A stretch of 64,000 nt of DNA from Prorocentrum cordatum (Eukaryota): the NCBI GenBank assembly GCA_963575745.1, contig CAUYUJ010000027.1, positions 1 to 64,000 on the forward strand, given 5' to 3'. Positions 1 through 24,796 of this stretch are shown here, piece after piece (within the stretch, counting starts at the first letter, position 1; every line of letters starts with the position of its first letter). The translations under genes were made by a program, and so were the position numbers. The notes under the pieces are model-generated. The model saw only the letters and a list, made by a program, of their open reading frames with translations. It did no database searches and had not been told where the DNA came from.

Positions 1-789
1 CGATTTTTTGGAAGATATTTATTTAACCATTTTGAGAAAGCAGATTTTTCGCACCTGTAAACGACTATGAGGGCCTCTCTGTCTTAGTATAAGCTGCGTA
101 GGCGCACTTTTACTATCAAAACACTTGGCGAAACCATCTTCATGTCGACACGAAAAAAAATAATTTTTCTTTTTTTCGAGAAATGCTTCTTGAAGCTCTC
201 TCGTTTGACTCCGAGCACTCTCACGCATAAAATGAGCTCTACGAGGTTCCCGGCGGTGACCAGGTTGACGGTTCACCGCCGGCGCCAGTATTTGAAAGAT
301 ATTTGACCATTTATTTTGAGAAAGCAGATTTTTCGCACCTGTAGACGACTAGGAGGGCTTCTGCGTCTTAATATGAGCTCTGTAGATGCGCTTTTACTAT
401 CAAAACACTTGGCGAAACCAACTTCATGTCGACATGGAAAAAATCACGTTTTCTTATTTTCGAGAAATGCTTCCAGAAGCCCTCTCTTTTGATGCTGAGC
501 ACTCTCACGCGTGCCAGGAGCTCTACGAGATTCCCGGCGGTGTCCAGGTTGACGGTTCACCGCCGGCGCCAGTTCCGGGGAGCTGGAGAGCTAGTTGGCA
601 AGAAAAATCTCGACGGACCTTTTGCTGACTTTTGGTCGGTTGAACATTTTGTTCTCGAAATTTGACCATTCGTTAGAGCTCTAGTATTTTTCCTCATGAT
701 ATTCGATCTTATTCTCGCTCGCCATCTTGATCTCAGCTCGATCGGGTAACTTTGAAGGCCAAAAAGCAGGCAGGCGGGAACGGCCATTT

Positions 790-2170
790 CGAGTCATCTT
801 GATACGTGCTGTCAGTATTTTGTACTTAAGTCGAGCTGTAGGGCAGCTACAGTGCTGGTAAGCACAGCTATCGCACTCAGAATCATTAGGCGCGTTCGCC
901 TGTTCAATCCAGAGGTCTGAACTCGGTCTGCTACCCGAGCTAGGTCCGCAAACCTATTCGTATTATTCGAGTCAACTTGATATGCGCTGTCGGTATTTTG
1001 TACTTAACCCGAGCTGTAGGGCAGCCACAGTGTCTGTAAGCACACCTATCGCACTCAGAATCATCAGGCGCGTCCGCCTATTCAATCCAGAGGTCCGAAC
1101 TCGGTCTGCTACCCGAGCTAGGGTCGCAAACCTATTCGTGTTATTCCAGTCAACTTGATAGCGTTGTCGGTATTTTCTGCTAACTCGAGGTCTAGGGCAG
1201 CTACAGTGCTGGTAAGCACAGCTATCGCACTCAGAATCATCAGGCGCGTTCGCCTGTTCAATCCAGAGGTCTGAACTCGGTCTGCTACTCGAGCTAGGTC
1301 CGCAAACCTATTCGTATTATTCGAGTCAACTTGATACGCGTTGTCGGTATTTCCTACTTAACTCGAGGTGTAGGGCAGCTACAGTGCTGGTAAGCACGCC
1401 TATCGCACCCAGAATCATCAGGCGCGTTCGCCTGTCGAATCCAGAGGTCTGAACTCGGTCTGCTAGCCGAGCTAGGTCCGCAAACCTATTCGTATTATTC
1501 GAGTCAACTTGATACGTGTTGTCGGTATTTTCTGCTTAACTCGAGGTCTAGGGCAGCTACAGTGCTGGTAAGCACAGCTATCGCACTTTGAATCATCAGG
1601 CGCGTTCGCCTGTTCAATCCAGAGGTCTGAACTCGGTCTGCTATCCGAGCTAAGTCCGCAAACCTATTCGTATTATTCGAGTCATCTTGACAGACGCTCT
1701 TGGTTTTCTGTACTTAACTCGAGCTGTAGGGCAGGTAGAGGGCTCATTGTCACAGACATCGATGGGGAATCATCAGTCGCGTTCGTCTACTGAACCGAGA
1801 GCTCTGAACTCGGCCTGCTGCCCGAGCTAGATTTGCGAAACTATTCGTATTGTTGAATGATCTTGAGAAGTGCTCTCTGTCTTCTGCACTTAACTCGTGT
1901 TTGGGCCGGCTACAGTGCTGCGGGTCACATATATCGATTTGCACACATCAGGCGTGTTTGTCGATCGATTCCAGAGCTCGGAACTCGGTCTGCTGCTCGA
2001 ACTAGATCGGGAAAACTATTCTATTATTCGAGTCGATACTGTCGGTTTTCTGCACTTAACTCGGGCTGTAGGGGGGCTGCACGGCTGGGAATCACATGAG
2101 TGGATTGGCAGACATCAGACGCGGCCGCCTGTCGCATTCAGAGGTCTGAACTCGGTTTGATACCCGAACT
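790..2170 (+). repeat. Internal ~178-bp tandem repeat of an alpha element (present in every alpha copy)
   Basis: The anchor agaggtc(t/c)gaactcgg recurs at 911, 1089, 1265, 1443 and 1621 (period 176-178). Confidence 0.92.
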
Positions 2171-2280
2171 CGGTTGCGAAACTGTTTGTTTTTTGTTAAC
2201 GTTATCTTGATAGGTCTGGAATCGCTTGGGCTGAAAAACTAGTCGTTCTTTGGAGTTTTTTCCCACACTTTATATTTTCA

Positions 2281-2339
2281 GGAAGCTCTACGAGTCCCCC
2301 GGCGGTAAGAAAGGTTGACGGTTTACCGCCGGCGCCCAG
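2281..2339 (+). other. Example alpha right end: subTIR + hairpin + terminus
   Basis: ggaagctctacgagt (reverse complement of the left-end actcgtagagcttcc), stem ccggcggtaa/ttaccgccgg, then cgcccag followed by T. Confidence 0.9.
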
Positions 2340-2721
2340 TTCCGGCGCGGGGTGGAGCTAGTTGACCGACCCGGCGAGAAAGGACAAAGTGATAACTTTT
2401 GGGTGGTTTTGCAAATATTTGAAAGATATTTGACAATTCATTTTGAGAAAGCAGATTTTTCGCACCTGTAGTGGGTTAAGACGCGTCTTCCAGTAAAATT
2501 TTCAGGTCCGTAGGAGCAGTATTTCTATCAAAACACTTGGAGGAACCGACGTTCGATAAAAACAGAAAAACGTGATTTTTCGGTTTTTGGGTTTCTCACT
2601 CCAGAAGCTTACTCCCTGTGTTCTGAGAGGCGTGGTGTGAGAAAAGAGCTCTACGAGGGTCCCGGCGGTAACCTGGTTGACGGTTTACCGCCGGTTCCCA
2701 GTAGCTGGAAGCTAAGAGTAA

Positions 2722-3119
2722 TACCTCGTAGAGCTCTTCGGCATCGATGAGCTAGAGGAATTCCGGCGCGGGGTGGAGCTAGTTGGCCCACCCGGCCAGA
2801 AAGGACAAAGTGATAACTTTTGGGTGGTTTTGCAATTTTTTGAAAGATATTTGACAATTCATTTTGAGAAAGCAGATTTTTCGCACCTGTAAACGACTAT
2901 GACGGCCTCTCTGTCTTAGTATGAGCTCCGTAGGCGCAATCTTACTATCAAAACACTTGGAGGAACCATCTTCACGTCGACGCGAAAAAATCAATTTTCC
3001 CCGTTTTCGAGAAATTCTTCCAGGAGCTCTCTCTTTCGAATCTGAAGAATCTTAGGCGTGAAAGGAGCTCTACGAGGTTCCCGGCGGTGACTAGGTTGAC
3101 GGTTCACCGCCGGCGCCAG
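2722..3119 (+). mobile_element. Complete beta element (398 bp)
   Basis: Starts tacctcgtagagctc and ends gagctctacgaggttcccggcggtga..tcaccgccggcgccag. It sits in an alpha leader (gagtaa|ttccgg, resuming at 4212). Confidence 0.85.
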
Positions 3120-5547
3120 TACCTCGTAGAGCTCTTCGACGAGATGAGCTAAGAGGAATTCGGGCGCAGGGTGGAGCTAGTTGGCCGACCCGACCAAAAG
3201 AGACAATGTGGTAACCTGGGGTCGGTTTTTGGAACATTGTGCAAGATTTGACAATTCGTTTTCATAAGTTGGATTTTTCCTACCTACAATAAGCTATGGC
3301 GCATCTGCTGGTAAAATTTTCAGGGCTCTAGAAGCAATATTACTATCAAAAGACTTGCGGGAACCGACTTTGCCCGCAGTACAGTTTGGCAGGTGACGGT
3401 GGTTGGCTTTACTTAACTCGAGCTGTCAGCAATCTACAGACCTCTCACGCACACCAGTCGATGCAGAATGATCTGACGCGTCACACTGGAAGCTCGAGAG
3501 TTCCTAGAAATGGCTGAGTCAGGAGTTATGATCGAAATACCGTCTCTATGTATGCGTGTTGCGAACGGTGTTTCGATGATAATTCGAGCTGAGTGCATGC
3601 TATGCATGCCAGGTGCATTCCAATCGAAGCAGCGACATGCGAGACATCGAATGAGCCTCGAGAGTGCCCAAATTGATTAGAATTTTCAAAATTAATGAAA
3701 AATATCGATTTGTACAATTTTATATTTTTTGTGTCGGATGATTTTTTTCTAATTTATATCGATCTATGGGTGAGCTAGAGAGTTCTGGTGCATTTTTGTC
3801 GACGCAGAATGGTCTCGCGCTCTCACTGAGAGCGCGAGACTTCATATGAATAGCTTCGCTGGGAGTGAGAACTTTGGTCCAGCCGGCCGAGGCGGACAAT
3901 GTGACAACTTTTGGGTGGTTTTGCAATTTTTTGAAAGATATTTGACAATTCATTTTGAAAAAGCAGATTTTTACTCCGAGCATTGAGATATAAACTTCGT
4001 TCCCTGATCAGCTCGGCCATCTAGAGTCATTTTCAGTACCAGTTCACTTGAAGGAACCGACTTCATGTTGACTCCGAAAAAATCTCAACTTGAAGTTTTT
4101 GTAGAAAAGCTCCCAGAAGCTCCCGCTTTGATGCTGAGCTTTCTCACGGATTCAAGGAGCTCTACGAGGTTCCCGGCGGTGACCAGGTTGACGGTTCACC
4201 GCCGGCGCCAGTTCCGGCGCGCTGGAGAGCTAGTTGGCAAGAAAAATCTCGACGGACCTTTTGCTGACTTTTGCTCGGTTGAAAATTTGTTCTCGAAATT
4301 TGACCATTCGTTAGAGCTCTAGTATTTTTTCCCATGATATTCGATCTTATTCCCGCTCGCCATCTTGATCTCAGCTCGATCGGGTAACTTTGAAGGCCAA
4401 AAAGCGCAGGCGGGAACGGCCGGTTCGAGTCATCTTGATACGCGCTATCGGTATTTCGTACTTAACTCGAGCTGTAGGCAGCTACAGAGCTGGTGAGCAC
4501 AGCTATCGCACTCAGAATTATCGCGCGCGTTCGCCTGTTGAAACCAGAGGTCTGAACTCGGTCTGCCAGCCGAGCTAGGTTCGCAAACCTATTTGTATTA
4601 TTCGAGTCATCTTGATAGACACTCTCGGTTTTCTGTACTTAACTCGAGCTTTAGGGCAGCTACAGTGCTTGTAAGCACAGCTATCGCTCTCAGAATCATC
4701 ACGCGCGTTCGTCTGTTGAATCCAGAGGTCTGAACTCGGTCTGCTAGCCGAGCTAGGTCCGCAAACCTATCAGTATTATTGGAGTGATCTTGATAGACGC
4801 TCTCGGTTTTCTGTACTTAACTCGAGCTGTAGGGCAGCTACAGGGCTCATTGTGACAGACATCGCTGGGGAATTATCAGTCGCGTTCGTCTATCGTACCG
4901 AGAGCTCTGAACTCGGCCTGCTGCCCGAGCTAGGTTCGCGAAGCTGTTCGTATTGTCCGAATGATCTTGAGACATGCTCTCAATTTTCTGCACTCAACTC
5001 GTGCTGGGGAAGGGCTACAGTGCTGCAGGTCGCATGTATCGATTTGCACACATCAGGCACGTCTTTCGGTCGATTCCAGAGCTCGGAACTCGGTCTGCTG
5101 CTCGAACTAGGTTCGCAAAACTATTATATTATTCGAATCGATACTGTCGGTTTTCTGCACTTAACTCGGGCTGTAGGGGGGCTTCAGTGCTGGGAATCAC
5201 ATGAGTGGATTCGCAGACATCAGACGCGCCCGCCTGTCGCATTCAGAGGTCTCAACTCGGTTTGATACTCGAACTGGGTTGCGAAACTGTTCGTTTTTTG
5301 TTAGCGTCATCTTGAGAGGTCTGAAATCGCTTGGGCTTAAAAAATAGTCGTTCTTTCGAGTTTTTTCCACAGTATATATTGTCAGGAAGCTCTACGAGTC
5401 CCCCGGCGGTAAGAAAGGTTGACGGTTTACCGCCGGCGCCCAGTAATAACTCGTAGAGCTTCCCTTAGCTAGTTATAGCTGGAAGAGTACCTCGTAGAGC
5501 TCTTCGGCATCGATGAGCTAGAGGAATTCGGCGCGGGGTGGAGCTAG

Positions 5548-6792
5548 TAACTCGTAGAGCTTCCCTTAGCTAGTTATAGCTGGAAGCTAAGAGTAATTCC
5601 GGCGCGCCCCACAGCTAGTTGGCTCGAAAAATCTCGACGGAACTTGGAACTTTTGACTTTTGCTCGGTTGAAAATTTTGTTCTCGAAATTTGACAATTCG
5701 TTAGAGCTCTAGTATTTTTTCCCGTGATATTCGATCTTATTCCCGCTCGCCATCTTGATCTCAGCTCGATCGGGTAACTTTGAAGGCCAAAAAGCACGGT
5801 GGCGGGATCGGCCGTTTCGAGTCATCTTGATATGCGCTGACGGTTTTCTGAACATAACTCGAGCTCTAGGGCAGCTACAGAGCTGGTAAGCACAGCTAAC
5901 TCATGCAGAATGATCAGGCGCGTTCGCCTGTTCAACCCAGAGGTCTGAACTCGGTCTGTCAGCCGAGCTAGGTTCGCAAACCTGTTTGTATTATTCGAGT
6001 CAACTTGACACGCGTTGTAGATATTTTCTACTTAACTCGAGCTATAGGGCAGCTACAGTGCCGGTAAGCACCCCTATCGCACTCAGAATGATCAGACGCG
6101 TTCGCCTGTTGAATCCATAGGTCTAAACTCGGTCTGCTAGCCGAGCTAGGTACGCAAACCTATTCGTATTATTCGAGTCAACTTGATACACGTTGTCGGT
6201 ATTTTCCACTTAACTCGAGCTGTAGGGCAGCTACCGCGCTGGTAAGCACCCCTATCGCACTCAGAATGATCAGACGCGTTCGCCTGTTGAATCCATAGGT
6301 CTAAACTCGGTCTGCTAGCCGAGCTAGGTCCGCAAACCTATTCGTATTATTCGAGTGAACTTGCTACGCGTTGTCGGTATTTTCCACTTAACTCGAGCTG
6401 TAGGGCAGCTACCGTGCTGGTAAGCACACCTACCGCACTCAGAATCATCAGGCGCGTTCGCCTGTTGAATCCAGAGGTCTGAACTCGGTCTGCTAGCCGA
6501 TCGAGAATCACGAAACTGTTCGTATTCTTCCAGTTAGCTTGAGAGCTACTGTCGGCGTTCTGCATTTAATTCGGGCTGTAGGGAGGCTGCAGGGCGGGTA
6601 ATCACAGGAATCGATTCGGAGACATCAGACGCGTCCGTCTGTCGCATTCAGAGGTCTGGACTCGGTCTGATACTCGAGTTGGGCGCAAAAACTATTCGTT
6701 CTCTGCAATTTTTTCCGACAGTATATGTTGTCAGGAAGCTCTACGAGTCCCCCGGCGGTAACAAAGGTTGACGGTTTACCGCCGGCGCCCAG
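5548..6792 (+). mobile_element. Complete alpha element C
   Basis: Both termini and the internal 178-bp repeats are present; no TSD. Confidence 0.85.
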
Positions 6793-6828
6793 TTGGCCCA
6801 CCCGGCCGAGGCGGACAATGTGGCAACT

Positions 6829-8033
6829 TAACTCGTAGAGCTTCCCTTAGCTAGTTATAGCTGGAAGCTAAGAGTAATTCCGGCGCGCTGGAGAGCTAGT
6901 TGGCTTTGACAATTCGTTAGAGCTCTAGTATTTTTTCCCGTGATATTCGATCTTATTCCCGCTCGCCATCTTGATCTCAGCTCGATCGGGTAACTTTGAA
7001 GGCCAAAAAGCACACTGGCGGGAACGGCCGTTTCGAGTCATCTTGATACGCGCTGTCGGTATTTTGTACTTAACTCGAGCTTCAGGACAGCTACAGAGCT
7101 GGTAAGCACAGCTATCGCACTCAGAATCATCAGGCGCGTTCGCCTGTTGAATCCAAAGGTCTGAACTCGCTCTGCCAGCCGAGCTAGGTCAAACCTATTC
7201 GTATTCTTCGAGTCAACTTGATACGCGTTGTCGGTATTTTCTACTTAACTCGAGCTGTAGGGCACCTACAGTGCTGGTAAGCACACCTATCGCACTCAGA
7301 ATCATCAGGCGCGTTCGCCTGTTGACTCGATAGGTCTGAACTCGGTCTGCTAGTCGAGCTAGCTCCGCAAACCTATTCGTATTATTCGAGTCAACCTGAT
7401 ACGTGTTGTCGGTATTTTCTACTTAACTCGAGCTGTAGGGCAGCTACAGTGCTGGTTAGCACAGCTATCGCACTCAGAATCATCAGGCGCGTTCGCCTGG
7501 ATTGAACTCGGTCTGCTAGCCGAGCTACGTGCGCAAACCTATTCGTATTATTCGAGTCAACTTGATATGCGTGCGTATTATTCGAGTCAACTTGATATGC
7601 GTGGTGGGTATTTTGTACTTAATTCGAGATGCAGGGCAGCTACAGTGCTGGTAAGCACACCTATCGCACTCAGAATCATCAGGGGTGTTCGTCCGCCTGT
7701 TGGATCCAGAGCTCCGAACTCGGTCTGCTGCCCAAATTAGATCGGCACAACTTCTATATTGTTCGAGTCATTCTCAAAAGTGCTGTCGGTTTTCTGCACC
7801 TACCTCGGGCCTGTAGGGGGGCGGCAGGGCTGGTGACAGAAGTCGATTCGGAGACATCAGACGTCCGCCTGTCGCATTCAGAGGTCAACAAATATTGACT
7901 ATAAGTCGGAATGTTGGATGCGCGGTTTTCTCAACCAGTGTTGGATGCGCGGTTTTCTCAACTAACATCAAGGTAGGAAGCTCTACGAGTCCCCGGCGGT
8001 AACCAAGGTTGACGGTTTACCGCCGGCGCCCAG
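6829..8033 (+). mobile_element. Complete alpha element D
   Basis: Both termini are present; no TSD. Confidence 0.85.
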
Positions 8034-11000
8034 TTTGGGTGGTTTTGCGATTTTTTGAAAGATATTTGACCATTTATTTTGAGAAAGCAGATTTTTACGC
8101 CGAGCATCGGCATATAAACTCCTCTCCGGTAGCAGCTCAGCTCTCCTGTTGCATTTTTACACGAGTTGACTTCCAGAACCTGAGCGAATATGAACACTGA
8201 AAAAAATCGAATTTGAAGATTTTCGAAACATCTCAATTTTTTGACTCTGTGTCGATTCTCTGCACTCTTACCAGTAAAAGGAGCTCTACGAGGTTCCCGG
8301 CGGTGACCAGGTTGACGGTTCACCGCCGGCGCCAGTAATTCCGGCGCGCTGGAGAGCTAGTTGGCAAGAAAAATCTCGACGGACCTTTTGCTGACTTTTG
8401 CTCGGTTGAAAATTTCGTTCTCGAAATTTGACCATTCGTTAGAGCTCTAGTATTTTTTCCCATGATATTCGATCTTATTCCCGCTCGCCATCTTGATCTC
8501 AGCTCGATCGGGTAACTTTGAAGGCCAAAAAGCGCACGGGCGGGAACGGCCGGTTCGAGTCATCTTGATACGCGCTATCGGTATTTTGTACTTAACTCGA
8601 GCTGTAGGGCAGCTACAGAGCTGGTGAGCACAGCTATCGCACTCAGAATTATCACGCGCGTTCGCCTGTTGAAACCAGAGGTCTGAACTCGGTCTGCCAG
8701 CCGAGCTAGGTTCGCAAACCTATTTGTATTATTCGAGTCATCTTGATAGACACTCTCGGTTTTCTGTACTTAACTCGAGCTTTAGGGCAGCTACAGTGCT
8801 TGTAAGCACAGCTATCGCTCTCAGAATCATCACGCGCGTTCGTCTGTTGAATCCAGAGGTCTGAACTCGGTCTGCTAGCCGAGCTAGGTCCGCAAACCTA
8901 TCAGTATTATTGGAGTGATCTTGATAGACGCTCTCGGTTTTCTGTACTTAACTCGAGCTGTAGGGCAGCTACAGGGCTCATTGTGACAGACATCGCTGGG
9001 GAATTATCAGTCGCGTTCGTCTATCGTACCGAGAGCTCTGAACTCGGCCTGCTGCCCGAGCTAGGTTCGCGAAGCTGTTCGTATTGTCCGAATGATCTTG
9101 AGACATGCTCTCAATTTTCTGCACTCAACTCGTGCTGGGGAAGGGCTACAGTGCTGCAGGTCGCATGTATCGATTTGCACACATCAGGCACGTCTTTCGG
9201 TCGATTCCAGAGCTCGGAACTCGGTCTGCTGCTCGAACTAGGTTCGCAAAACTATTATATTATTCGAATCGATACTGTCGGTTTTCTGCACTTAACTCGG
9301 GCTGTAGGGGGGCTTCAGTGCTGGGAATCACATGAGTGGATTCGCAGACATCAGACGCGCCCGCCTGTCGCATTCAGAGGTCTCAACTCGGTTTGATACT
9401 CGAACTGGGTTGCGAAACTGTTCGTTTTTTGTTAGCGTCATCTTGAGAGGTCTGAAATCGCTTGGGCTTAAAAAATAGTCGTTCTTTCGAGTTTTTTTCC
9501 ACAGTATATATTGTCAGGAAGCTCTACGAGTCCCCCGGCGGTAAGAAAGGTTGACGGTTTACCGCCGGCGCCCAGTTCCGGGGAGCTGGAGAGCTAGTTG
9601 GCAAGAAAAATCTCGACGGACCTTTTGGTGACTTTTGGTCGGTTGAAAATTTTGTTCTAAAAATTTGACCATTCGTTAGAGCTCTAGTATTTTTTCTCAT
9701 GATATTCGATCTTATTCCCGCTCGCCATCTTGATCTCAGCTCGATCGGGTAACTTTGAAGGCCAAAAAGCAGGCAGGCGGGAACGGCCGTTTCGAGTCAT
9801 CTTGATACGCGCTGTCGGTTTTCTCAAGATGCTGCGCAATCCAGAATCACGAAACTGTTCGTATTCTTCCAGTCATCTTGAGAGCTACTGTCGGCGTTCT
9901 GCACTTTACTCGGGCTGTGGGAGGCTGCAGGGCGGGTAATCACATGAATCGATTCGGAGACATCAGACGCGTCCGTCTGTCGCATTCAGAGGTCTGAACT
10001 CGGTCTAAGACTCGAGTTGGACTGAAAAACTATTCGTTCTCTGCATTTTTTTTCGACATTATATGTTGTCAGGAAGCTCTACGAGTCCCCCGGCGGTAAC
10101 AAAGGTTGACGGTTTACCGCCGGCGCCCAGTCTTGATACGCGCTGTCGGTTTTCTCAAGATAACTCGAGCTTCAGGACAACTACAGAGCTGGTCAGCACA
10201 GCTAATGCATTCAGAATGATCAGGCGCGTTCGCCTGTTGAATCCAGAGGTCTGAACTCGGTCTGCTAGCCGAGCTAGGGTCGCAAACCTATTCGTATTAT
10301 TCGAGTTATTGTAGCAGACGCTCTCGGTTTTTCGTACTTAACTCGATCTGTAGGGCAGCCACAGAGCTGATAATCACAGAAATCGATTGAGAATTATCAG
10401 GCGCGTTCGTCTGTTGAATCGAGAGCTCTGAACTCGGCCTGCTCCCCGAGCTAGGTTCGCGAACCTATTGGTACTCTTCGAGTCATCTTGAGAAGTGCTC
10501 TCGGTTTTCTGTACTTAAATCGTGCTGGGGGAGGGCTACAGTGCTGCTGGTCACAGAAATCGATTTCGAGACATCAGGCGCGTCCGTTCGTCGAACCGAG
10601 AGCTCGGAACTCGGTCTGCTGCTCGAACGAGATCCGCGACACTGTTGTATTATTCGAGTCATTCTGAGAGGTACTCTCGGTTTTCTAATTTAACTCAGGC
10701 TCTATGGGGGGCTGCAGAGCTGGTAATCACAGGAATCGATCCGGAGACATCATACGCGTCCGCCTCTCGCATTCAGAGGTCTGAACTCGGTTTCATACTC
10801 GAGCTCGATTGGAAAACTGTTCGTTTGTTTTGTTAGAGTCATCTTGAGAGGTCTATAATCGCTTGGGCTGAAAAACTAGTCGTTCTCTGCAATTCTTTCC
10901 CACATTATATATTGTCAGGAAGCTCTACGAGTCCCCCGGCGGTAAGAAAGGTTGACGGTTTACCGCCGGCGCCCAGTTGGCAAGACAAATCTCGACGGAC

Positions 11001-12024
11001 CTTTTGGTGACTTTTGGTCGGTTGAAAATTTCGTTCTCAAAATTTGACCATTCGTTAGAGCTCTAGTTTTTTTTCTCATGATATATGATCTTATTCCCGC
11101 TCGCCATCTTGATCTCAGCTCGATCGGGTGACTTTGAAGGCCAAAAAGCAGGCAGGCGGGAACGGCCGTTTCGAGTCATCTTGATACGCGCTGTCGGTTT
11201 TCTCAAGATAACTCGAGCTTCAGGACATCTACAGAGCTGGTCAGCACAGCTAATGCATTCAGAATGATCAGACGCGTTCGCCTGTTGAATCCAGAGGTCT
11301 GAACTCGGTCTGCTAGCCGAGCTAGGGTCGCAAACCTATTCGTATTATTCGAGTCATTGTAGCAGACGCTCTCGGTTTTTCGTACTTAACTCGATCTGTA
11401 GGGCAGCCACAGAGCTGATAATCACAGGAATCGATTCAGAATTTTCAGGCGCGCTCATCTGTTGAATCAAGAGCTCTGAACTCGGCCTGCTCCCCGAGCT
11501 AGGTTCGCGAACCTATTTGTATTGTTCGAGTCATCTTGAGAAGTGCTCTCGGTTTTCTGTACTTGAATCGTGCTGGAGGGGGCTACAGTGCTGCTGGTCA
11601 CAGGAATCGATTTCGAGACATCAGGCGCGTCCGTTCGTCGAACCGAGAGCTCGGAACTCGGTCTGCTGCTCGAACGAGATCCGCGAAACTGTTGTATTAT
11701 TCGAGTCATCCTGAGAGGTACTCTCGATTTTCTGCACTTAACTCGGGCTGTATGGGGGGCTGCAGAGCTGGTAATCACAGGAATCGATCCGCAGACATCA
11801 GACGCGTCCGCCTGTCGCATTCAGAGGTCTGAACTCGGTTTCATACTCGAGCTCGATTGGAAAACTGTTCGTTTGTTTTGTTAGAGTCATCTTCAGAGGT
11901 CTATAATCGCTTGGGCTGGGAAACTAGTCGTTCTCTGAAATTCTCTTCCACATTGTATATTGTCAGGAAGCTCTACGAGTCCCCCGGCGGTAAGAAAGGT
12001 TGACGGTTTACCGCCGGCGCCCAG

Positions 12025-12422
12025 TACCTCGTAGAGCTCTTCGGCATCGATGAGCTAGAGGAATTCCGGCGCGGGGTGGAGCTAGTTGGCCCAGCCGGCC
12101 GAGGCGGACAATGTGGTAACTTTTGGGTGGTTTTGCGAAAATTTGAAAGATATTTGACCATTTATTTTGAGAAAGCAGATTTTTACGCCGAGCATTGGCA
12201 TCTAAACTCCTCTCTGACAGCAGCTCAGCTCTCTCTATGCATTTTTGCATGAGTTGACTTCCGGGAACTCAGCGAATATGAATATCGAAAAAATCGAATT
12301 TCAAGATTTTCGAAAAATCTATTTTTTTTGATTCTGTCTCGGTTCTCTGCGCTCTTACCAGTGAGAGGAGCTCTACGAGGTTCCCGGTGGTGGCCAGGTT
12401 GACGGTTCACCGCCGGCGCCAG
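12025..12422 (+). mobile_element. Complete beta element (398 bp)
   Basis: Both termini are present; it directly abuts the alpha right end at 12024. Confidence 0.85.
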
Positions 12423-12471
12423 TGGACGCTTTCAAGTGACAAATTTGGGTGGTTTTGCAAACATTCAAACT

Positions 12472-14096
12472 TAACTCGTAGAGCTTCCCTTAGCTAGTTA
12501 TAGCTGGAAGCTAAGAGTAATTCCGGCGCGCGGGAGAGCTAGTTGGCTCGAAAAAAAAAGCTGAACTTTTCACAACTTTTGGTCAGTTGAAAATTATATT
12601 CTCGGAATTTGACCATTCGTTAGAGCTCTAGTATTTTTTCCCGTGATATTCGACCTTATTCCCGCTCGCGATCTTAATCTGAGCTCGATCGGGTAACTTT
12701 GAAGGCCAAAAAACACACTGGCGGGATCGGCCGTTTCGAGTCATCTTGATACACGCTGTCGATATTTTGTACTTAACTCGAGCTGTAGACCAGCTACAGA
12801 GCTGGTGAGCACAGCTATCGCACTCAGGATGATCAGACGCGTTCGCCTGTTGAATCCAGAGGTCTGAACTCGGTCTTCTAGCCGAGCTAGGTCCGCAAAC
12901 CTATTCGTATTATTCGAGTCAACTTGACACGCGTTGTCGCTATTTTCTCTTGAACTCGAGCTGTAGGGCAGCTGTAGTGCTGGTAAGCACACCTATCGCA
13001 CTCTGAATCATGAGGCGCGTTCGTCTGTTGAATCCATAGGTCTGAACTCGGTCTGCTAGCCGAGCTAGGTCCACAAACCTATTCGTATTATTCGAGTCAA
13101 CTTGATACGCGTTGCCGGTATTTTCTACTTAACTCGAGCTGTCGGGCAGCTATAGTGCTGGTAAGCACACCTATCGCACACATAATCATCAGGCGCGTTC
13201 GCCTGTTGAATCGATATGGCTGAACTCAGTGTGCTAGCTGAGCTAGGTCCGCAAACCTATTCGTAATATTCGAGTCAGCTTGATACGCGTTGTCGGTATT
13301 TTGTACTTAATTCGAGCTGCAGGGCAGCTACAGATCTGATAAGCACACCTATCGCACTCATAATCATCAGGCGCGTTCGCCTATCGGATCCAGAGGTCTG
13401 AACTCGGTCTGCTAGCCGAGCTAGGTTAGCAAACCTATTCGTATTATTGGAGTCATCTTGACAACCGCTCTCGGTAATTTCTGTACTTAACTCGAGCTGT
13501 AGGCAGCTACAGAGCCTACAGTCACAGAAATCGATTGAGATTTATTGGGCATGTTTGTCTCTTGTATCGAGAGCTCTGAACTCGGCCTGCTGCCCGAGCT
13601 AGGTTCGCGAACCTATTCGTATTGTCCGAATGATCGTGAAACGTGCTCTGATTTTTCTGCACTCAACTCGTGCTGGGGGAGGGCTACAGTGCTGCGGGTC
13701 ATAGAAATCGATTTGCACACATCAGGCGCGTTCGTTGGTCGATTCGAGAGCTCAGAACTTGGCCTGCTGCTCGAAACAGGTCTGCGAAACTATTATATTC
13801 GAGTCATCCTGAGAGATGCTGTCGGTTTTCTGCACTTAACTCGGGCTGTAGGGGGGCTGCAGGGCTGTAATCACATGAGTTGATTCGCAGACATCAGACG
13901 CGTGCGCCTGTCGCATTCAGAGGTCTGAACTCGGTCTGATCAGACGCGTCCGCTTGTTGCATTCAGAGGTAAAAAATATTCACTATGAGTCAGAATGTTG
14001 GTAGGTGCTCTCGGTTTTCTCAACTTAAGTCGAGCTTGGAAGCTCTACGAGTTCCCCGGCGGTAACCAAGGTTGACGGTTTACCGCCGGCGCCCAG
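12472..14096 (+). mobile_element. Complete alpha element
   Basis: Both termini are present; same subfamily as 19827-21407. Confidence 0.85.
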
Positions 14097-15578
14097 TTTG
14101 GGTGGTTTTGCAAACATTTAAAAGATATTTGACCATTTATTTTGAACAAGCAGATTTTTACGCCGAGCATTGGCATATGAACTCCTTTCTGACAGCAGCT
14201 CAGCTCTCTCGATGGATTTTTGCATGAGTTGACTTCTGGGAACTGAGCGAATATGAACATCCAAAAACATGAAATTTGAAGATTTTCGAAAATCTCGATT
14301 TTTTTTGATTCTGTGTCGATTCTCTGCACTCTTACTAGTGAGAGGAGCTCTACGAGGTTCCCGGCGATGACCAGGTTGACTGTTCACCGCCGGCGCCAGT
14401 TGGCAAGAAACATATCGACGGACCTTTTGGTGACTTTCGGTCGGTTGAAAATTTTGTTCTCAGAATTTGAACATTCGTTAGAGCTCTAGTATTTTTCCCA
14501 TGATATTCGATCTTTTCCCGCTCGCCATCTTGATCTCAGCTCGATCGGATAACTTTCAAGGCCAAAAAGCGTCCCGGCGGGAACGGCCGTTTTGAGTCAT
14601 TTTGATACGCGCTGTCGATATTTTGTACTTAACTCGAGCTATAGAGCAGCTACAGGGCTGGTAAGCACAGCTATCGCACTCAGGATGATCATGCGCGTTC
14701 GCCTGTTAAATCCAGAGGTCTGAACTCGGTCTGCTAGCCGAGCTAGGTCCGCAAACCTATTCGTATTATTCGAGTCATCTTGATAGACGCTCTCGGTTTT
14801 CTGTACTTAACTCGAGCTTTAGGGCAGCTACAAAGCTGGTAAGCACACCTGCCGCATTTAGAACCTGTTGAATCCAGAGGTCTGAACTCGGTCTGCTACT
14901 AGCCGAGCTAGGTCTGCAAACCTATTCGTATTATTCGAGTCATCTTGATAGACGCGTTTGGTTTTCTGTACTTAACTCGAGCGGTAGGGCAGCTACAAGG
15001 CTTATTGTGACAGACATGGATGGGGAATCATCAGTCGCGTTCGTCTATTGAACCGAGAGCTCTGAACTCGGCCTGCTGCCCGAGCTATGTTCGCGAACCT
15101 ATTCGTATTGTCCGAATGATCTTGAGAAGTGCGCTCAATTTTCCACACTAAACTCGTGCTGGGGGAGGGCTAGAGTGCTGCGATTCACATATATCGATTA
15201 ACACAGATCAGGCGCGTCTTTCGGTCGATTCTATAGCTCGGAACTCGGTCTGCTGCTCGAACTAGGTTCGCAAAACTATTATATTAGTCGAGTCGATACT
15301 GTCGGTTTTCTGCACTGAACTCGGGCTGTAGGGGGGCTGCAGGGCTGGGAATCACATTAGTATATTCGCAGACATCAGACGCGCCCGCCTGTCGCATTCA
15401 GAGGTCTGAACTCGGTTTGATACTCGAACTGGGTTGCGAAACTGTTTGTTTTTTGTTAGCGTTATCTTGAGAGGTCTGAAATCGCTTGGGCTTAAACAAT
15501 AGTCGTTCTTTGGAGTTTTTTCCCACAGTACATATTGTCAGGAAGCTCTACGAGTTCCCCGGCGGTAAGAAAGGTTGA

Positions 15579-16809
15579 TCATGAAGTTGATCATGAAGTT
15601 GCTGACCATGAAGTGTTGATCATGAAGTTGCGCACGTGGGTTCGCACGTTCCTGTTCTTGCTCAGACGGCAGCTGATGTGAAGATGTCGGAGTTGGAGAT
15701 GGATAACGAGGATAACATGCGGTGCTTACTACTTCAGACGATGCATAAGATGGATGACAATACTGAGAGGATCCAGGACGCCATAGTAGTTCAGGGTAGT
15801 AAAATCGATAATGTTCAGACCCAGGTACAGAAGCAGGGTAGTAAAATCGATAATGCTCAGACCCAGGTACAGAGATTTGAGGCCAGATACAATCAACTTG
15901 AGGCCTTCGTCCAGAGACTTCAGGGACTGGCGCGATCAGGTTCTGCGGCGAGTGCTGCGTCTACGAGGCCTGTGTTTACGAAACCTGCTAATACTATACA
16001 TTATACCTGAGTATATGCTGCCTGCCGCCGCCTCTCTGTGTTGCTGGCTTGTATTGTGTCACGTGCTTGTTCAGTGAGACGAGTTTGAACTTTTGTGACT
16101 TGTAATTGCGTTGCTTTCTTCATGCTTGTGTGTTCATGCATGCACGCGTGTCGAATAAGAGCTTCGCTTGATGGCCACTTGTTGCATGCATTAATGATTG
16201 AGATCGCCTCGCGTGGTCTTTTTGTTTGTTATTGGGACTGCCTCGTGTGGTTATTCAGTGCATCTTTATTCAGTGCAGCCATGGCTGTAATGCTTGTATC
16301 TCATTTGTTCTTCTTTTCCTCACTTTATCTCTCATTGAGCTCTAACAATTCAGTGTGTGCATGTTCAGTCCCTGGCCAGGTCTCCTGGCTCTCTTGTCGC
16401 AGTCTTAGTCTTGCCTCTTCAGTGTTCTCACTGTTGTAGGGTTTAATTTTAGTTCCGCCTCATCAGTTTCATTTGACACGTTTGATCGCCTTGAGTGGTC
16501 TCCAATTGATTTGTTTTGCTGGGTGCTTCCTTCACTTTCTTGATCGTTCCGACGTGCCTGTTGATTGAGACGTACTGTGGCCTCAAAGAGGTTCGATAGT
16601 ATTTGATCTCCTTAATTCATCACTTCACATTTGACGTTGAGCATAAGACTCTTGTCATACCGCGGGTTGTACAAGCGTATTTCGGAGAGCTTAGGCTGTC
16701 GTCTTCCTGATCGTCAGGATCGGTGAGGCTTCGCCTGCTCCCTATACGTCCGCGTCTTTACTTCCGACTAGGCTGGAAAGCCTGCACAGTCGACCGCAAA
16801 GTCCGCAAA
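15579..16809 (+). mobile_element. 1.2-kb retroposed insertion (non-autonomous or SINE-like) in an alpha hairpin loop
   Basis: 12-bp TSD aagaaaggttga (15567-15578 and 16810-16821). The 3' end reads gaccgcaaagtccgcaaa. No RT coding sequence. Confidence 0.8.
15684..16010 (+). CDS. Short coiled-coil-like ORF (possibly ORF1-like) inside the insertion
   Basis: Q/E/D-rich heptad-like sequence with a 14-codon duplication (QGSKIDNVQTQVQK / QGSKIDNAQTQVQR). No catalytic motif. Confidence 0.35.
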   Translation: MSELEMDNEDNMRCLLLQTMHKMDDNTERIQDAIVVQGSKIDNVQTQVQKQGSKIDNAQTQVQRFEARYNQLEAFVQRLQGLARSGSAASAASTRPVFTKPANTIHYT

Positions 16810-17813
16810 AAGAAAGGTTGACGGTTTACCGCCGGCGCCCAGTTGGCAAGAAAAACCTCGACGGAACTTTTGGTGACTTTTGGTCGGTTGAAAATTTTGT
16901 TCTCGAAATTTGAACATTCGTTAGAGCTCTAGTATTTTGTTCCGTGATATTCGATCTTATTCCCGCTCGCCATCTTGATCTCAGCTCGATCGGGTAACTT
17001 TGAAGGCCAAAAAGCACTCTGGCGGGAACGGCCGTTTCGAGTCATCTTGATACGCGTTGTCGGTATTTTGTACTTAACTCGAGCTGTAGGACAGCTACAG
17101 AGCTTGTAAGCACAGCTATGGCACTCAGAATCATCAGGCGCGTTCGGCTGTTCAATCCATAGGTCTGAACTCGGTCTGCTAGCCGAGCTAGGTCCGCAAA
17201 CCTATTCCTATTATTCGAGTCAACTTGATACGCGTTGTCGGTATTTTCTACTTAACTCGAGCTGTAGGGCAGCTACAGTGCTGGTAAGCACACCTATCGC
17301 ACGCAGATTCATCAGGCGCGCTCGCCTGTTGAATCCATAGGTCTGAACTCGGTCTGCTAGCCGAGCTAGGTCCGCAAACCTATTCGTATTATCCGAGTCA
17401 ACTTGATACGCGTTCTCGGTATTTTCTACTTAACTCGAGCTGTAGGCCAGCTACAGTGCTGGTAAGCACACCTATCACACTCAGAATAATCAGGCGCGTT
17501 CGCATGTTGAATCCAGAGCTCTGAACTCGGTCTGCTGCGCGATCCAGAATCACGAAACTGTTCGTATTCTTCCAGTCATCTTGAGAGCTACTGTCGGCGT
17601 TCTGCACGTAACTCGGGCTGTAGGGGGGCTGCAGGGCGGTTAATCACAGGAATCGATTCGGAGACATCAGACGCGCCCGTCTGTCGCATTCAGAGGTCCG
17701 AACTCGGTCTGATATTCGAGTTGGGCTGACAACCTATTTGTTCTCTGCATTTTTTTTCGACATTATATGTTGTCAGGAAGCTCTACGAGTCCCCCGGCGG
17801 TAACAAAGGTTGA

Positions 17814-19740
17814 GGGAAATTGTCTTTACCAGATGACGTCACCCCAAAAGCCAGCCTCCGAAAGTTGGGTTGTTTGGAAGCCAGCTCGACTCAGAATTGC
17901 TAGACGGATGTTCTTTGAAGCAAAGTGCCAGAGTGCAGTGCAGAGAGTTCTTTATTCCTTGTGGCAGCTTGGAGCTGACATAGCATCATATTTTGGAGCT
18001 AATGTCGACAGCGGATATCAGATTCCTGAGTCGGAGCTGAGCCCAGGAATGGTCGCGGGCTCTCTAGTTACCAATGGGATGGGGGAGGTCTCTTCAGTTA
18101 CCAATGGGATGGGGGCTGTCTCTTCAGTTACTAGTGGGATGGGTGCAGTCTCTTCAGATATGAATGGGATGGGTGTGGTCTCTTCTGATATGAATGGGAT
18201 GGTCTCTCCAGTTACCAGTGGGATGGATGTGGTCTCTTCAGTTACTGGTGGGATGGTGGGAGTCTCTTCAGTTACCAGTGGGATGGGTGCTGTCTCTGAT
18301 ATGCATGGGATGGTCTCTCCAGTTACCAGTGGGATGGGTGTGGTCTCTTCAGTTACTAATGGGATGGTGGGAGTCTCTTCAGTTACCAGTGGGATGGGTG
18401 CTGTCTCTGCAGTTACTAATGGGATGGGCGCAGTCTCCTCAGATACGAATGGGATGGGCGCTGTCTCTTCAGATATGCATGGGATGGTCTCTTCTGCTAT
18501 GCCCTCTGATAGGGCCTCTTCTTCTCGAGATGTTGAAGTTCCCTGTGAGCGGGGGGGGCCTAGGGATTCCCCCAGGCCCCCCCCGAAACGTCGGAGGGTG
18601 GCTGTTCCTGGACCTGGACAACAGACGGTGTATCCTCGTGCGCATCGTGACGCACGCCGGCTTCTGATGTGCTGTACCCCGAGGTGGGAGGAGAAAAGGA
18701 CACTGGAGTCAAAATATTGGCGTTCACAGTGGAAGTGGAAGGAGGCCTCGAAACTGACACGATTAGGCAGTACTAAGGGGCAGGCGACGGGTGAACATCC
18801 TTGGTGTTTCATGTTCCAGACGATATTTCCCTCGTTTGTGAATCTGGAGGATCGGTGGTGGAGGGCGTGCTCTTTCTCTTACTCTGACTTCGTTCAGTAT
18901 TGCAGGCAGTTCCTGGAAGCTTGTACTTTGGGGTCTCTGTTTGACTTGTTTGTTGTCCGTGGAGGAACTGGAGGGAGAGGAGACTACATAAAGGAGAGGG
19001 GGGAGGAGATGTTGGCTCGTCCGTTGTCGGCGAAGGAGTCCGAGAAGCTGGCCCAGAGATTGGCCTCGAACAATGAACAGGAGCCGACTTGGGATCTGAG
19101 TGATGATGGGATCGGTCTCGAGCTGACGGGCGATTCGCTTCTTATCTGTAACTGGATCAATGGTCTCTGGAAGGTTGAGGGAGGAGAAGGAGGAGATGGG
19201 GCTTCTTATCGTAGGCGGGTGGCAAATATTATTTCTCTTTTGGAAGAGTTGGAGGAGGAAGGAATACGACCCCCCTCATGGGGCAACGACTTCATTCGAC
19301 ACATATATCGAGAGAGTAACACAGTAGCTGATGAACTTACCCACTTAGCACGGGAAGGCCAGATATTCAGAGAGCTGTTCCACCACCATATCTTTCGTTC
19401 TGATGTCCGAGACAACTTTCGAGTTATTGGCCTCCGCGGATCCTTCGACGGCGGAGTGTGTGCCCAAGGTGTGGGCGTTGGCTGGTTTCTGCAGATTGGA
19501 TATATTCCTCGATTCCATGACCCTTACCCTGACCCTGAGCATAGAGATAAGAGAGCTCGTGTAGTCTCCCTCTTCCCCCAAGCCTCCTCTCCTTGTCCAA
19601 TCATATGGGAAATAGTAGGGCGTTGTGCACAGGCACTCCCCTCCCATAGCAGTATCACTGACGCTGAGCTTTCGGGTCTCGAGGGCCTCTTGCGGGCCGC
19701 AGTCCAGGTGGCCCAAGACCTCCAGCTGCAGAGAGACTAG
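17814..19740 (+). CDS. C-terminal part of a LINE ORF2-type protein: repeat linker + RNase H (permuted motif order)
   Basis: Uninterrupted frame with LELTGDSLL, HIYRESNTVADELT, GSFDGG and ITDAEL. The ATG at 17767 in the ORF track lies in host element sequence. Confidence 0.85.
18061..18500 (+). repeat. Coding 30-bp (and 21-bp variant) tandem repeat, SSVTxGMGAV
   Basis: Units such as tcttcagttaccagtgggatgggtgctgtc, all in frame. Confidence 0.9.
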
Positions 19741-24763: not shown

Positions 24764-24796
24764 CCCAGCTGGAACATCGGTCCGAAAACCCAAAAA
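21712..24796 (+). mobile_element. 5'-truncated non-LTR retrotransposon (RT + RNase H) in a beta right end
   Basis: The host reads gagctctacgaggtttcctggc|...|accaggttgacggttcaccgccggcgccag. The 3' end is ccgaaaacccaaaaa. No TSD, small target deletion; the 5' junction is uncertain by a few bp. Confidence 0.9.

What the first reader, a model, noticed from the sequence alone, without database searches (positions are those of the whole stretch)
5444..9600. The apparent satellite is a nested stack of self-targeting elements
Seen: 5444-5548 holds three stacked left ends, which close in reverse order. Removing C (5548-6792) and D (6829-8033) restores B. Removing B (5488-8335) restores A. Removing A (5447-9575) restores taa|ttccgggg. 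No TSD occurs beyond an ambiguous single T. The same logic holds at 2721/4212, 24881/26000 and 31066/31471. Insertion points recur in the first ~150 bp of the host (gagctag|ttgg, gagtaa|ttcc, caact|tttggg), always before a T and in the host's orientation. Inference: the array grows by self-targeted insertion beside the left subTIR, possibly guided by transposase bound there, rather than by tandem amplification.
Basis: seen in the sequence. Interest (0 to 1): 0.85.

Follow-up and report, generated by a model that had tools for sequence, protein, structure and literature searches.

The report
Self-nesting rolling-circle transposons forming a pseudo-satellite
What looks like a satellite is a pile of small hairpin-ended, Helitron-like transposons that have repeatedly jumped into the first ~120 bases of each other in the same orientation, a known habit of this transposon group seen here at unusual depth and precision.

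Summary
At 5444-9575, removing C and D gives a 398-bp element B, colinear with an intact copy. Removing B restores A, apart from a 5-nt gap. Removing A rejoins TAA|TTCC.

Window 1-30286 is a same-orientation array of two related non-coding families:
- F1: about 1.1-1.6 kb, with internal 178-bp repeats.
- F2: 398 bp.

Both have the Helitron2/Helentron (HINE) end structure: a 5' inverted repeat folding into a 5' hairpin, the matching 3' subterminal repeat, a 10-bp 3' hairpin, no target duplication, and a T after 34 of 35 right ends.

Eight nests close in the window. Of 35 right ends, 22 abut the first ~120 nt of another copy. Seventeen of these lie at or within 3 nt of the edges of a conserved 22-nt block just 3' of the 5' hairpin.

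- About 14 units stay open, so a stack of left ends is predicted upstream of the window.
- Deletions, one 5'-truncated insert with a 31-bp duplication, and LINE-like insertions also shaped the array.
- No Rep/helicase partner, whole genome or long reads were available.

Self-insertion near the 5' end is already reported for Fusarium Helitron2 elements.

The parts
5444..5446 (+). TAA: the only visible left-side remnant (F1 positions 47-49) of the outermost host H1. It lies between the right end of F1 'X' (5443) and the left end of A.
5447..5487 (+). Left piece of A (F1 positions 1-46, with a 5-nt deletion). It contains the 5' inverted repeat and most of the 5' hairpin.
5488..5547 (+). Left piece of B (F2 positions 1-61, with a 1-nt deletion), inserted in A at GAG|TAATTCC (F1 46|47).
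5548..6792 (+). C: a complete F1 of 1245 bp, inserted in B at CTAG|TTGG (F2 61|62). Features: 5' hairpin 5550-5594; 178-bp repeats 5816-6669; 3' subterminal repeat 6734-6748; 3' hairpin arms 6752-6761 and 6776-6785; tail CGCCCAG 6786-6792.
6793..6828 (+). Middle piece of B (F2 positions 62-97).
6829..8033 (+). D: a complete F1 of 1205 bp, inserted in B at AACT|TTTGGG (F2 97|98).
8034..8335 (+). Right piece of B (F2 positions 98-398), ending CGCCAG.
8336..9575 (+). Right piece of A (F1 position 47 to the end). It is 1230/1232 identical to the body of X at 4212-5443.
9576..10976 (+). Body of host H1 (F1 from position 50), starting TTCCGGGG. It carries at 9831-10130 a 5'-truncated F1 3' fragment flanked by an exact 31-bp direct repeat (9800-9830 and 10131-10161).
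2702..5443 (+). F1 'X'. Its left piece is 2702-2721 (F1 30-49). F2 elements at 2722-3119 and 3120-4211 are inserted at GAGTAA|TTCC. The body is 4212-5443. X sits in H1 at 46|47.
12025..12422 (+). Uninterrupted F2 (398 bp), used as the reference. It lies head-to-tail behind the F1 right end at 12024.
12472..14096 (+). Complete F1 in an F2-like host at AACT|TTTGGG. It is the only insertion with a flanking direct repeat (22 bp, at 12444-12465 and 14097-14118).
24882..26000 (+). Complete F1 in an F2 host at about position 118 (GCAAAAA|TTGAGAG). Its right end reads CCCAT.
31067..31470 (-). Complete F2-like element on the minus strand, nested at CTAG|TTGG in another minus-strand F2. The host's left piece is 31471-31530 and its body runs from 31066 downwards.
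1..30286 (+). The whole plus-strand array, with 29 of the 32 plus-strand right ends and 11 left ends. GC is about 0.46-0.53, against 0.58-0.67 beyond 54 kb.

Best explanation
What it is. F1 and F2 are non-autonomous rolling-circle transposons of the Helitron2/Helentron type (HINE-like). F1 carries an internal 178-bp tandem repeat.

How they insert. They integrate precisely, strand-specifically and without target duplication, immediately 5' of a T. Resident copies are themselves preferred targets.

Where the sites lie. Most lie in the first ~120 nt:
- The two main sites are AA|TTCCGG, 2 nt past the base of the 5' hairpin, and CTAG|TTGG, 22 nt further on.
- These two sites bracket a 22-nt block that is 18/22 conserved between F1 (positions 50-71) and F2 (positions 40-61).
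- A third site, AG|TAATTC (F1 46|47), resembles the joined end-to-end junction AG|TAACTC.

How the array grows. Each newcomer brings a fresh 5' region, so the process repeats. Short left pieces stack up, and bodies with intact 3' ends line up behind them. The result looks like a satellite of 5'-truncated units.

Shown here: the end structure, the colinear nests, the recurrence of sites, the orientation and the flanking T.

Inferred: that a Rep/helicase transposase moves the elements, and that it is drawn to the resident 5' hairpin and block, or to sequences that mimic its own cleavage sites. Also inferred: the open units have left pieces upstream of the window.
For: End structure:
- The 5' repeat ACTCGTAGAGCTTCC (F1) or CCTCGTAGAGCTC (F2) lies 2 nt from the 5' end. 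It is complementary to the 3' subterminal repeat GGAAGCTCTACGAGT or GAGCTCTACGAGG.
- The two families differ by compensating changes. In the 5' hairpin, A3-T47 in F1 corresponds to C3-G37 in F2. All 51 of 51 cells pair, and 1 of 500 shuffles reaches the observed covariation score.
- A 10-bp 3' hairpin ends 6-7 nt from the terminus.
- F1 has central tandem repeats.

Insertion behaviour:
- 12 of 13 insertion intervals have no flanking direct repeat.
- 34 of 35 right ends are followed by T. Of the 32 on the plus strand, 19 are followed by TT.
- Eight nests are colinear after excision.

What follows the 35 right ends:
- TTCCGG of F1 or F2: 7.
- TAA(TTCC): 2.
- TTGG(C) of F1 or F2: 8.
- F2 position 98: 2.
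- F2 at about position 117: 2.
- F1 position 30: 1.
- Another left end directly: 4.
- Satellite, with a 31-bp duplication: 1.
- Other or unrecognised: 8.

Independence. A and X have bodies 99.8% identical but carry unlike F2 inserts 3 nt apart.

Published definitions that match (passages read):
- Helitron2: PMC3627910.
- HINE: PMC4067079.
- Multiple 5' termini shorter than 200 bp, attributed to self-insertion in Fusarium Helitron2: PMC5148889.
Against: - No Rep/helicase gene was found. Pfam on 33 window ORFs gave only RVT_1 above the curated cut-off, and no whole genome is held.
- There are 35 right ends but only 13 left ends, so about 14 units cannot be closed in the window.
- The outermost joint rests on 3 nt. 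The left flank of the 12472 nest aligns over only 4 nt.
- One 5'-truncated copy has a 31-bp duplication, which shows that a second insertion mode exists.
- Some junction types could be inherited copies of composites rather than independent hits.
- Divergence from the consensus shows no trend along the array (rho 0.28, p 0.34).
- Hairpin folding energies alone are unremarkable. z is -0.4 to -1.7 for five of the six folds and -3.1 for one.
- Contig L001 shows insertions in an inverted satellite monomer.
Confidence: 0.7

Rival explanations
1. Most units that start at F1 position 50 or 72, or F2 position 40, 62 or 98, are not hosts. They would be 5'-truncated copies made by 'one-ended' rolling-circle transposition that started at internal look-alikes of the left end. 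They would then have landed just behind other elements' right ends.
For: - There are 35 right ends against 13 left ends.
- One clear 5'-truncated fragment is present (9831-10130).
- 5'-truncated Helitron2 copies are reported in Chlamydomonas (PMC3627910, passages read).
- AG|TAATTC resembles the true left junction AG|TAACTC.
Against: - The same break points occur in eight nests where the complementary left piece is present directly upstream. The two cases at 46|47 and 49|50 each match their own right piece.
- The reported one-ended copies, and the one case found here, carry target duplications. The hot-spot junctions do not.
- Start points cluster at about five sites instead of being scattered.
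Confidence: 0.12
2. Only a few insertion events occurred. Composite units, such as an F2 right end followed by the F1 body, were then multiplied. The multiplication could be by segmental duplication, unequal crossing-over, gene conversion, or transposition of composites, so the recurrence of sites is inherited.
For: - 3910-5444 matches 8034-9576 across an F2|F1 junction (94.5% over 1552 bp).
- Several F1 bodies are 95-96% alike.
- Deletion joints show that recombination has acted in the array.
- Composite Helitrons with several termini are known to move as units (PMC5148889 and PMC3288121, passages read).
Against: - Identity jumps at the element boundary. The F1 bodies are 1230/1232 identical, but the adjoining F2 parts are only 222/301 identical. 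The junctions are also offset by 3 nt.
- The left flanks of the two F1 insertions at F2 97|98 differ.
- The order of the units is irregular.
Confidence: 0.08
3. F1 and F2 are non-autonomous retroelements (SINE-like) copied by the reverse-transcriptase elements in the array. The excess of intact 3' ends would then reflect incomplete reverse transcription.
For: - Reverse-transcriptase ORFs lie in the array (21680-24763, RVT_1 E 1.3e-9).
- Four RT-element 3' ends are followed by the last 27-33 nt of F1 or F2.
- One 5'-truncated F1 fragment has a target duplication.
Against: - The shared tail is explained by RT elements inserting into the hairpin loop. The 12-nt duplication copies the host's own loop variant: AAGAAAGGTTGA at 15567-15578 and 16810-16821, and AACAAAGGTTGA at 17802-17813 and 19794-19805.
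- Full-length F1 and F2 insertions have precise ends, no duplication and no A-rich tail.
- The paired-end structure with compensating changes fits a single-strand DNA transposon.
Confidence: 0.04
4. The local order is an assembly artefact. For example, two alleles or two paralogous copies (X and A) were joined in tandem, or the repeats were mis-threaded.
For: - X and A have 99.8% identical bodies 4.1 kb apart.
- The element's words occur at depths of thousands to over 100,000 in the runs laid, which makes it a hard target for assembly.
- No read or contig spanning the stack could be obtained.
Against: - The nests are internally consistent to the base at every joint.
- The same logic holds at several separate places and on both strands.
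- Apart from X and A, copies differ by 4% or more.
Confidence: 0.05

Closest known systems
HINEs: non-autonomous Helentrons such as Drosophila DINE-1, mite HINE-Mo and oyster Cg_HINE (PMC4067079 and PMC7492417, passages read)
   Same: - A subterminal inverted repeat lies 2-4 nt from the 5' end and 38-60 nt from the 3' end (here 2 and 44 nt).
- A palindrome lies 8-35 nt from the 3' end (here 6-7 nt from the hairpin foot to the end).
- There is a central satellite-like tandem repeat.
- There is no target duplication, and the target is T or TT.
- Copy number is very high.
   Different: [quoted passage not shown] The passages I read do not describe recursive nesting at fixed positions of other copies.
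- No Helentron (Rep-helicase-endonuclease) partner could be looked for here.
Helitron2 elements as defined in Chlamydomonas and others (PMC3627910, passages read)
   Same: - The 5' asymmetric inverted repeat lies 0-2 nt from the end and folds with downstream bases into a 5' hairpin.
- The 3' repeat lies just upstream of the 3' hairpin.
- The first base is T.
- Related elements show compensating changes.
- 5'-truncated copies with variable target duplications exist.
   Different: - The 3' repeat lies 44 nt from the end here, against 20-30 nt.
- The truncated copy here has a 31-bp duplication, against 7-19 bp reported.
- The arrays described here are not reported there.
FoHeli Helitron2 elements of Fusarium with multiple 5' termini, and three tandem copies in Metarhizium acridum (PMC5148889, passages read)
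   Same: - Short 5' pieces (31-85 nt, under 200 bp) are repeated in front of one body.
[quoted passage not shown]
   Different: - Only one to a few levels are described there, and site-level recurrence is not analysed in the passages I read.
- Here eight closed nests and about 14 open units share about five nucleotide-precise sites across two families in 30 kb.
Tandem arrays of canonical Helitrons in bat, silkworm and plant centromeres, as cited in PMC4067079, PMC7492417 and PMC5148889 (cited statements only; the primary papers were not read)
   Same: Head-to-tail clusters of rolling-circle transposons that can look like satellites.
   Different: - Those arrays are ascribed to bypass of the termination signal or to rolling-circle amplification, and the inner copies are truncated at the 3' end.
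- Here every unit keeps its 3' end, and the apparent truncation is at the 5' end.
Bacterial HUH single-strand transposons (IS200/IS605 and IS91 families), recalled from my own knowledge and not from a call
   Same: - They have subterminal hairpins.
- Insertion is strand-specific and makes no duplication.
- The target resembles the element's own cleavage site.
   Different: They are prokaryotic, with different proteins. The analogy is only a lead for why end-like sequences could attract insertions here.

Membership tests
Helitron2 / Helentron non-autonomous element (HINE) | A short 5' inverted repeat within 0-4 nt of the 5' end, complementary to a subterminal 3' repeat | tested here: met
   F1: positions 3-17 against 6734-6748 in copy C. 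F2: 13 nt. Conserved in 13 left ends and 35 right ends.
Helitron2 / Helentron non-autonomous element (HINE) | A 5' hairpin formed by the 5' repeat with bases downstream of it | tested here: met
   Predicted at F1 positions 3-47 and F2 positions 3-37. 51 of 51 cells pair, two pairs carry compensating double changes, and 1 of 500 shuffles reaches the observed score. The folding z-scores alone are weak.
Helitron2 / Helentron non-autonomous element (HINE) | A 3' hairpin or palindrome between the 3' repeat and the terminus | tested here: met
   CCGGCGGTAA ... TTACCGCCGG, followed by CGCC(C)AG.
Helitron2 / Helentron non-autonomous element (HINE) | Insertion without target-site duplication | tested here: met
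   12 of 13 insertion intervals have no adjacent direct repeat. Eight rejoined hosts are colinear.
Helitron2 / Helentron non-autonomous element (HINE) | Target T(T/C) or TT, and a 5' terminal T | tested here: met
   34 of 35 right ends are followed by T, and 19 of 32 plus-strand ends by TT. 12 of 13 left ends start with T. The boundary is ambiguous by one T.
Helitron2 / Helentron non-autonomous element (HINE) | An autonomous partner with the same termini that encodes Rep and a Pif1-like helicase (plus an endonuclease in Helentrons) | not testable with these tools
   No genome is held. Pfam on 33 window ORFs found no Rep or helicase. The metagenome scan returned one 1.5-kb non-coding contig.
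Helitron2 / Helentron non-autonomous element (HINE) | Transposition through a single-stranded or circular intermediate with joined ends | not testable with these tools
   Head-to-tail junctions CCAG|TAACTCG exist in the chromosome (at 3119, 12024, 27405 and 31532), but they do not demonstrate circles.
Non-LTR retrotransposon / SINE partner | Target duplications, plus a 3' tail that is A-rich or shared with the LINE | tested here: not met
   Full-length insertions have no duplication. The tail shared with the RT elements is host sequence duplicated on insertion.
Classical satellite made by tandem amplification of one unit | Head-to-tail copies of one unit with the same phase and high mutual identity | tested here: not met
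   Units are F1 or F2 in irregular order, with five or more different start points. Only the 178-bp repeats inside F1 are a true tandem repeat.

The most novel reading that the evidence does not exclude
The Helitron2-type transposase homes on resident copies of its own family. It would use the 5' hairpin plus the adjacent conserved 22-nt block, or sequences mimicking its own cleavage junctions, as an integration platform. Arrays would then grow recursively at their 5' side and become satellite-like, possibly heterochromatic or centromere-like, domains. A LINE-like retroelement in turn specialises on the loop of the same elements' 3' hairpin. Together this would be a three-tier set of nested genomic parasites in a very repeat-rich planktonic eukaryote.
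Probability: 0.35. Interest if true: 0.7.

Novelty: new variant of a known kind. Interest (0 to 1): 0.55.

Why it matters
How transposons turn into satellite arrays is an open question. For rolling-circle elements the usual answer is read-through or rolling-circle amplification. This locus shows another route at base resolution: repeated same-strand insertion into a few fixed sites next to the 5' hairpin of resident copies. If the site preference is a property of the transposase, it points to which DNA features of Helitron2/Helentron ends the enzyme recognises. It also offers defined oligonucleotide substrates for testing that. For annotation, it warns that arrays of apparently 5'-truncated units with intact 3' ends may be deep nests and not truncated copies.

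Tried and rejected
- Whole genome: none is held, so the genome-wide census of insertion sites and the search for a Rep/helicase partner could not be run.
- Long-read check: the look-up of sequencing runs listed 24 runs, all kept as contigs. The four I laid gave only unitigs. The pieces listed were about 70-180 nt and none spanned the stretch. The structure is therefore neither confirmed nor refuted. Joints in that output have sides of only 19-30 nt and come from a very high-copy family, so I used them only as hints of further sites near F1 positions 97-138.
- Metagenome scan with a 20-nt left-end motif: one contig.
- Rfam at gathering thresholds: no match in the window.
- Pfam on 31 ORFs from 32-64 kb: nothing above the curated cut-offs.
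- Earlier findings of this scan: none, by place, by sequence or by words.
- Literature search with three end motifs as text: only unrelated papers.
- Searches for prior descriptions:
  - Self-insertion near Helitron2 5' ends was found in Fusarium.
  - No paper was found on a LINE that targets Helitron hairpins. That search was narrow.
- Divergence gradient along the array, which the model predicts if left is younger: no signal (rho 0.28, p 0.34, 14 F1 3' ends). Subfamily differences dominate.
- The idea that the RT ORF is the elements' own enzyme was rejected because of the covarying 12-nt duplications.
- The N-terminal 35 residues of the stop-to-stop ORF 17713-19740 are only translated F1 3' sequence, not a reverse-transcriptase motif.

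Full report
**What is there**

Positions 1-30286 are one plus-strand array at 0.46-0.53 GC. The sequence beyond 54 kb is 0.58-0.67 GC.

The array is built from two related non-coding families:
- F1 is 1.06-1.63 kb. It starts TAACTCGTAGAGCTTCCC and ends GGAAGCTCTACGAGT-CCCCCGGCGGTAA-loop-TTACCGCCGG-CGCCCAG. It holds 3-7 copies of a 178-bp tandem repeat.
- F2 is 398 bp. It starts TACCTCGTAGAGCTC and ends GGAGCTCTACGAGG-TTCCCGGCGGTGA-loop-TCACCGCCGG-CGCCAG.

I count 35 right ends, 32 on the plus strand and 3 on the minus strand. There are 13 complete left ends, 11 on the plus strand and 2 on the minus strand.

**Check of the observation**

The three left ends at 5447 (A), 5488 (B) and 5548 (C) are real. 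The right ends close in the order C (6792), D (6829-8033), B (8335), A (9575).

- With C and D removed inside a script, B is 398 bp. That equals the intact F2 at 12025-12422, and the two are 361/397 identical with no gap at either joint.
- For A, B, C, D, 2722-4211, 12472-14096, 24882-26000 and 31067-31470 (minus strand), the 35+35 nt flanks joined in silico align to an intact copy with the joint inside an ungapped block.
- For A and for 12472 the left flank contributes only 5 and 4 aligned bases.
- A's left piece lacks 5 nt just upstream of B.
- Only 12472-14096 has a flanking direct repeat, of 22 bp.
- 34 of 35 right ends are followed by T, with P about 4e-18 at a T frequency of 0.28.

**What the elements are**

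The 5' repeat lies 2 nt from the end. It pairs either with the 3' subterminal repeat or with bases downstream of itself.

- The downstream pairing gives a 5' hairpin at F1 positions 3-47 and F2 positions 3-37.
- F1 and F2 differ by compensating changes: A3-T47 against C3-G37, and CGAGT against CGAGG in the 3' repeat.
- F1 subfamilies show a T-A to A-T swap in the inner stem.
- On 13 left ends, 51 of 51 cells pair, and 1 of 500 shuffles reaches the covariation score.
- A 10-bp 3' hairpin ends 6-7 nt before the terminus.

This is the published end structure of Helitron2 (PMC3627910, passages read) and of non-autonomous Helentrons, or HINEs. HINEs also carry central tandem repeats, make no target duplication and prefer T or TT (PMC4067079 and PMC7492417, passages read; the target summary is in PMC13085455).

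The defining protein partner could not be sought. No genome is held. The window has no Rep or helicase ORF among the 33 scanned.

**Where insertions go**

| What follows the right end | Number of 35 |
|---|---|
| TTCCGG (F1 49\|50 or F2 39\|40) | 7 |
| TAA(TTCC) (F1 46\|47) | 2 |
| TTGG(C) after CTAG (F1 71\|72 or F2 61\|62) | 8 |
| F2 97\|98 | 2 |
| F2 at about position 117 | 2 |
| F1 29\|30 | 1 |
| Another left end directly | 4 |
| Satellite monomer, with a 31-bp duplication | 1 |
| Other or unrecognised sequence | 8 |

- 22 of 35 junctions lie in the first ~120 nt of another copy, always on the same strand.
- The two main sites are 22 nt apart in both families. They bracket a block, TTCCGGCGCG..GAGCTAG, that is 18/22 conserved and starts 2 nt past the foot of the 5' hairpin.
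- The site AG|TAATTC (46|47) resembles the end-to-end junction AG|TAACTC seen at 27405.
- CTAG|T resembles the right-end cut CCAG|T.
- TT dinucleotides in the first 120 nt on the same strand make up only 7% (F1) to 15% (F2) of all TT sites of an element.
- 8 of 9 closed insertions falling there has P about 2e-6 if the events are independent.

**Independence of events**

A and the neighbouring F1 'X' have bodies 1230/1232 identical. X consists of 2702-2721 plus 4212-5443.

- The F2 parts next to them are only 222/301 identical.
- They are inserted 3 nt apart, at 46|47 in A and 49|50 in X.
- X and A themselves sit 3 nt apart in the same host H1, separated by the TAA at 5444-5446.

This looks like repeated hits on one spot by young copies, not one inherited composite. 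Gene conversion or an assembly join cannot be excluded.

**What the nested model leaves open**

About 14 units with intact right ends have no left piece in the window. Examples start at 573, 2340, 10977, 14400, 16843, 19827, 21408, 24827, 27267, 28970 and 29996. Under the model, their left pieces lie in reverse order upstream of position 1. This is a sharp but untested prediction.

Other processes are visible:
- A 300-bp 5'-truncated F1 fragment (9831-10130) lies between exact 31-bp repeats. It recalls the truncated Helitron2 copies with duplications reported in Chlamydomonas (PMC3627910).
- Deletion joints lie at 26172/26173, at about 26979-27006, and between 3365 and 3874.
- Divergence shows no gradient along the array.
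- The one metagenome contig found (L001) has an F1 right end and an F1 left end 19 nt apart in an inverted satellite monomer.

**A second layer, seen in passing**

Reverse-transcriptase elements lie inside the array.

- P0001 (21680-24763) matches RVT_1 at E 1.3e-9, and the features search pointed to RT/RNase H families. There is also a 5'-truncated relative and a distant minus-strand copy.
- All four of their 3' ends join the second half of an F1/F2 3' hairpin at the same loop position.
- In two cases a 12-nt duplication copies the host's own loop variant, AAGAAAGGTTGA or AACAAAGGTTGA, after an A-rich tail.

The shared 27-33 nt therefore come from insertion into the loop and not from common descent. 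This removes the retroelement reading of F1 and F2.

**Comparison with what is known**

- Satellite-bearing HINEs and Helitron2 ends are well described.
- Tandem Helitron arrays are usually ascribed to read-through or rolling-circle amplification, with truncation at the 3' end (statements cited in PMC4067079 and PMC7492417).
- Self-insertion into the 5' end has been proposed for Fusarium Helitron2 elements. It gives repeated 5' pieces under 200 bp there (PMC5148889). Nesting has also been proposed as the source of multi-terminus Helitrons in maize (PMC3288121).
- New here are the depth of the recursion, the base-precise sites shared by two families next to the 5' hairpin, and the resulting satellite-like array.

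**Copy number and independent support**

Words of the stretch occur at summed depths of thousands to more than 100,000 in the four runs laid. Two of these are labelled as organisms, one as a marine metagenome and one as a metagenome. Only short unitigs were available, so the assembled order has no independent support.

**Verdict**

- Observation: confirmed.
- Interpretation: partly supported.
- Classification: Helitron2/Helentron-type non-autonomous elements on structural criteria, with the protein criterion untested.
- Novelty: a new variant of a known behaviour.
- Interest: moderate.

Noticed in passing
window 15579-16809, 17814-19793, about 21708-24797 (plus strand) and about 39009-41415 (minus strand): LINE-like reverse-transcriptase elements. 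One has an ORF of 1027 aa with RVT_1 and a C-terminal part shared with a 5'-truncated copy. Another is a distant relative. All four 3' ends are joined to the same position in the loop of an F1/F2 3' hairpin. Two have 12-nt target duplications that copy the host's loop variant, and one has a small target deletion. This looks like a retroelement specialised on these hairpins. No description was found in one literature search.
   Followed up: partly
window 9800-10161: A 300-bp 5'-truncated F1 3' fragment (9831-10130) is inserted in the first satellite monomer of another F1. It is flanked by an exact 31-bp direct repeat. This is a second insertion mode, unlike the duplication-free nests.
   Followed up: yes
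window 4212-5443 and 8336-9575: Two F1 bodies are 1230/1232 identical although they carry different F2 inserts. This points to very recent copying, gene conversion or an assembly join.
   Followed up: partly
window 26172/26173, about 26979-27006, and 3365-3874: Joints where an F2 runs directly into the middle of an F1, or the reverse, with no element end between them. These are internal deletions or recombination within the array.
   Followed up: no
window 26000 and 29995: Two F1 right ends read CCCAT in place of CCCAG. The host continues correctly if the element ends at CCCA, so the cut may vary by one base.
   Followed up: no
window 18055-18487: A 30-bp tandem repeat of about 15 copies lies inside the truncated RT-element ORF. 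It encodes a repeated SSVTNGMG-like peptide.
   Followed up: no
window 45691-46117, 47393-49222, 50287-54674 and 59403-60133: Long simple repeats lie beyond the array. They include (GAG)n, TGCTA/TAGCT pentanucleotide runs, a 4.2-kb (ATG)n-like tract with GC skew up to 0.63, a 73-bp repeat and GCTGAG repeats. GC rises from about 0.49 to about 0.64 near 54.5 kb. No Pfam family was found in the ORFs there.
   Followed up: no
window 32569-36100: More diverged relatives of F1 have a 174-bp internal repeat (34819-35663) and right ends at 32624, 34588 and 36100. Each is followed by T-rich sequence. The junction at 34588 abuts an F1-like sequence at about position 125-130.
   Followed up: no
L001 898-916: In the only metagenome contig with the F1 left-end motif, an F1 right end and an F1 left end are separated by 19 nt. 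Those 19 nt are the reverse complement of a satellite monomer. These are therefore insertions in the opposite orientation and outside the 5' region.
   Followed up: partly
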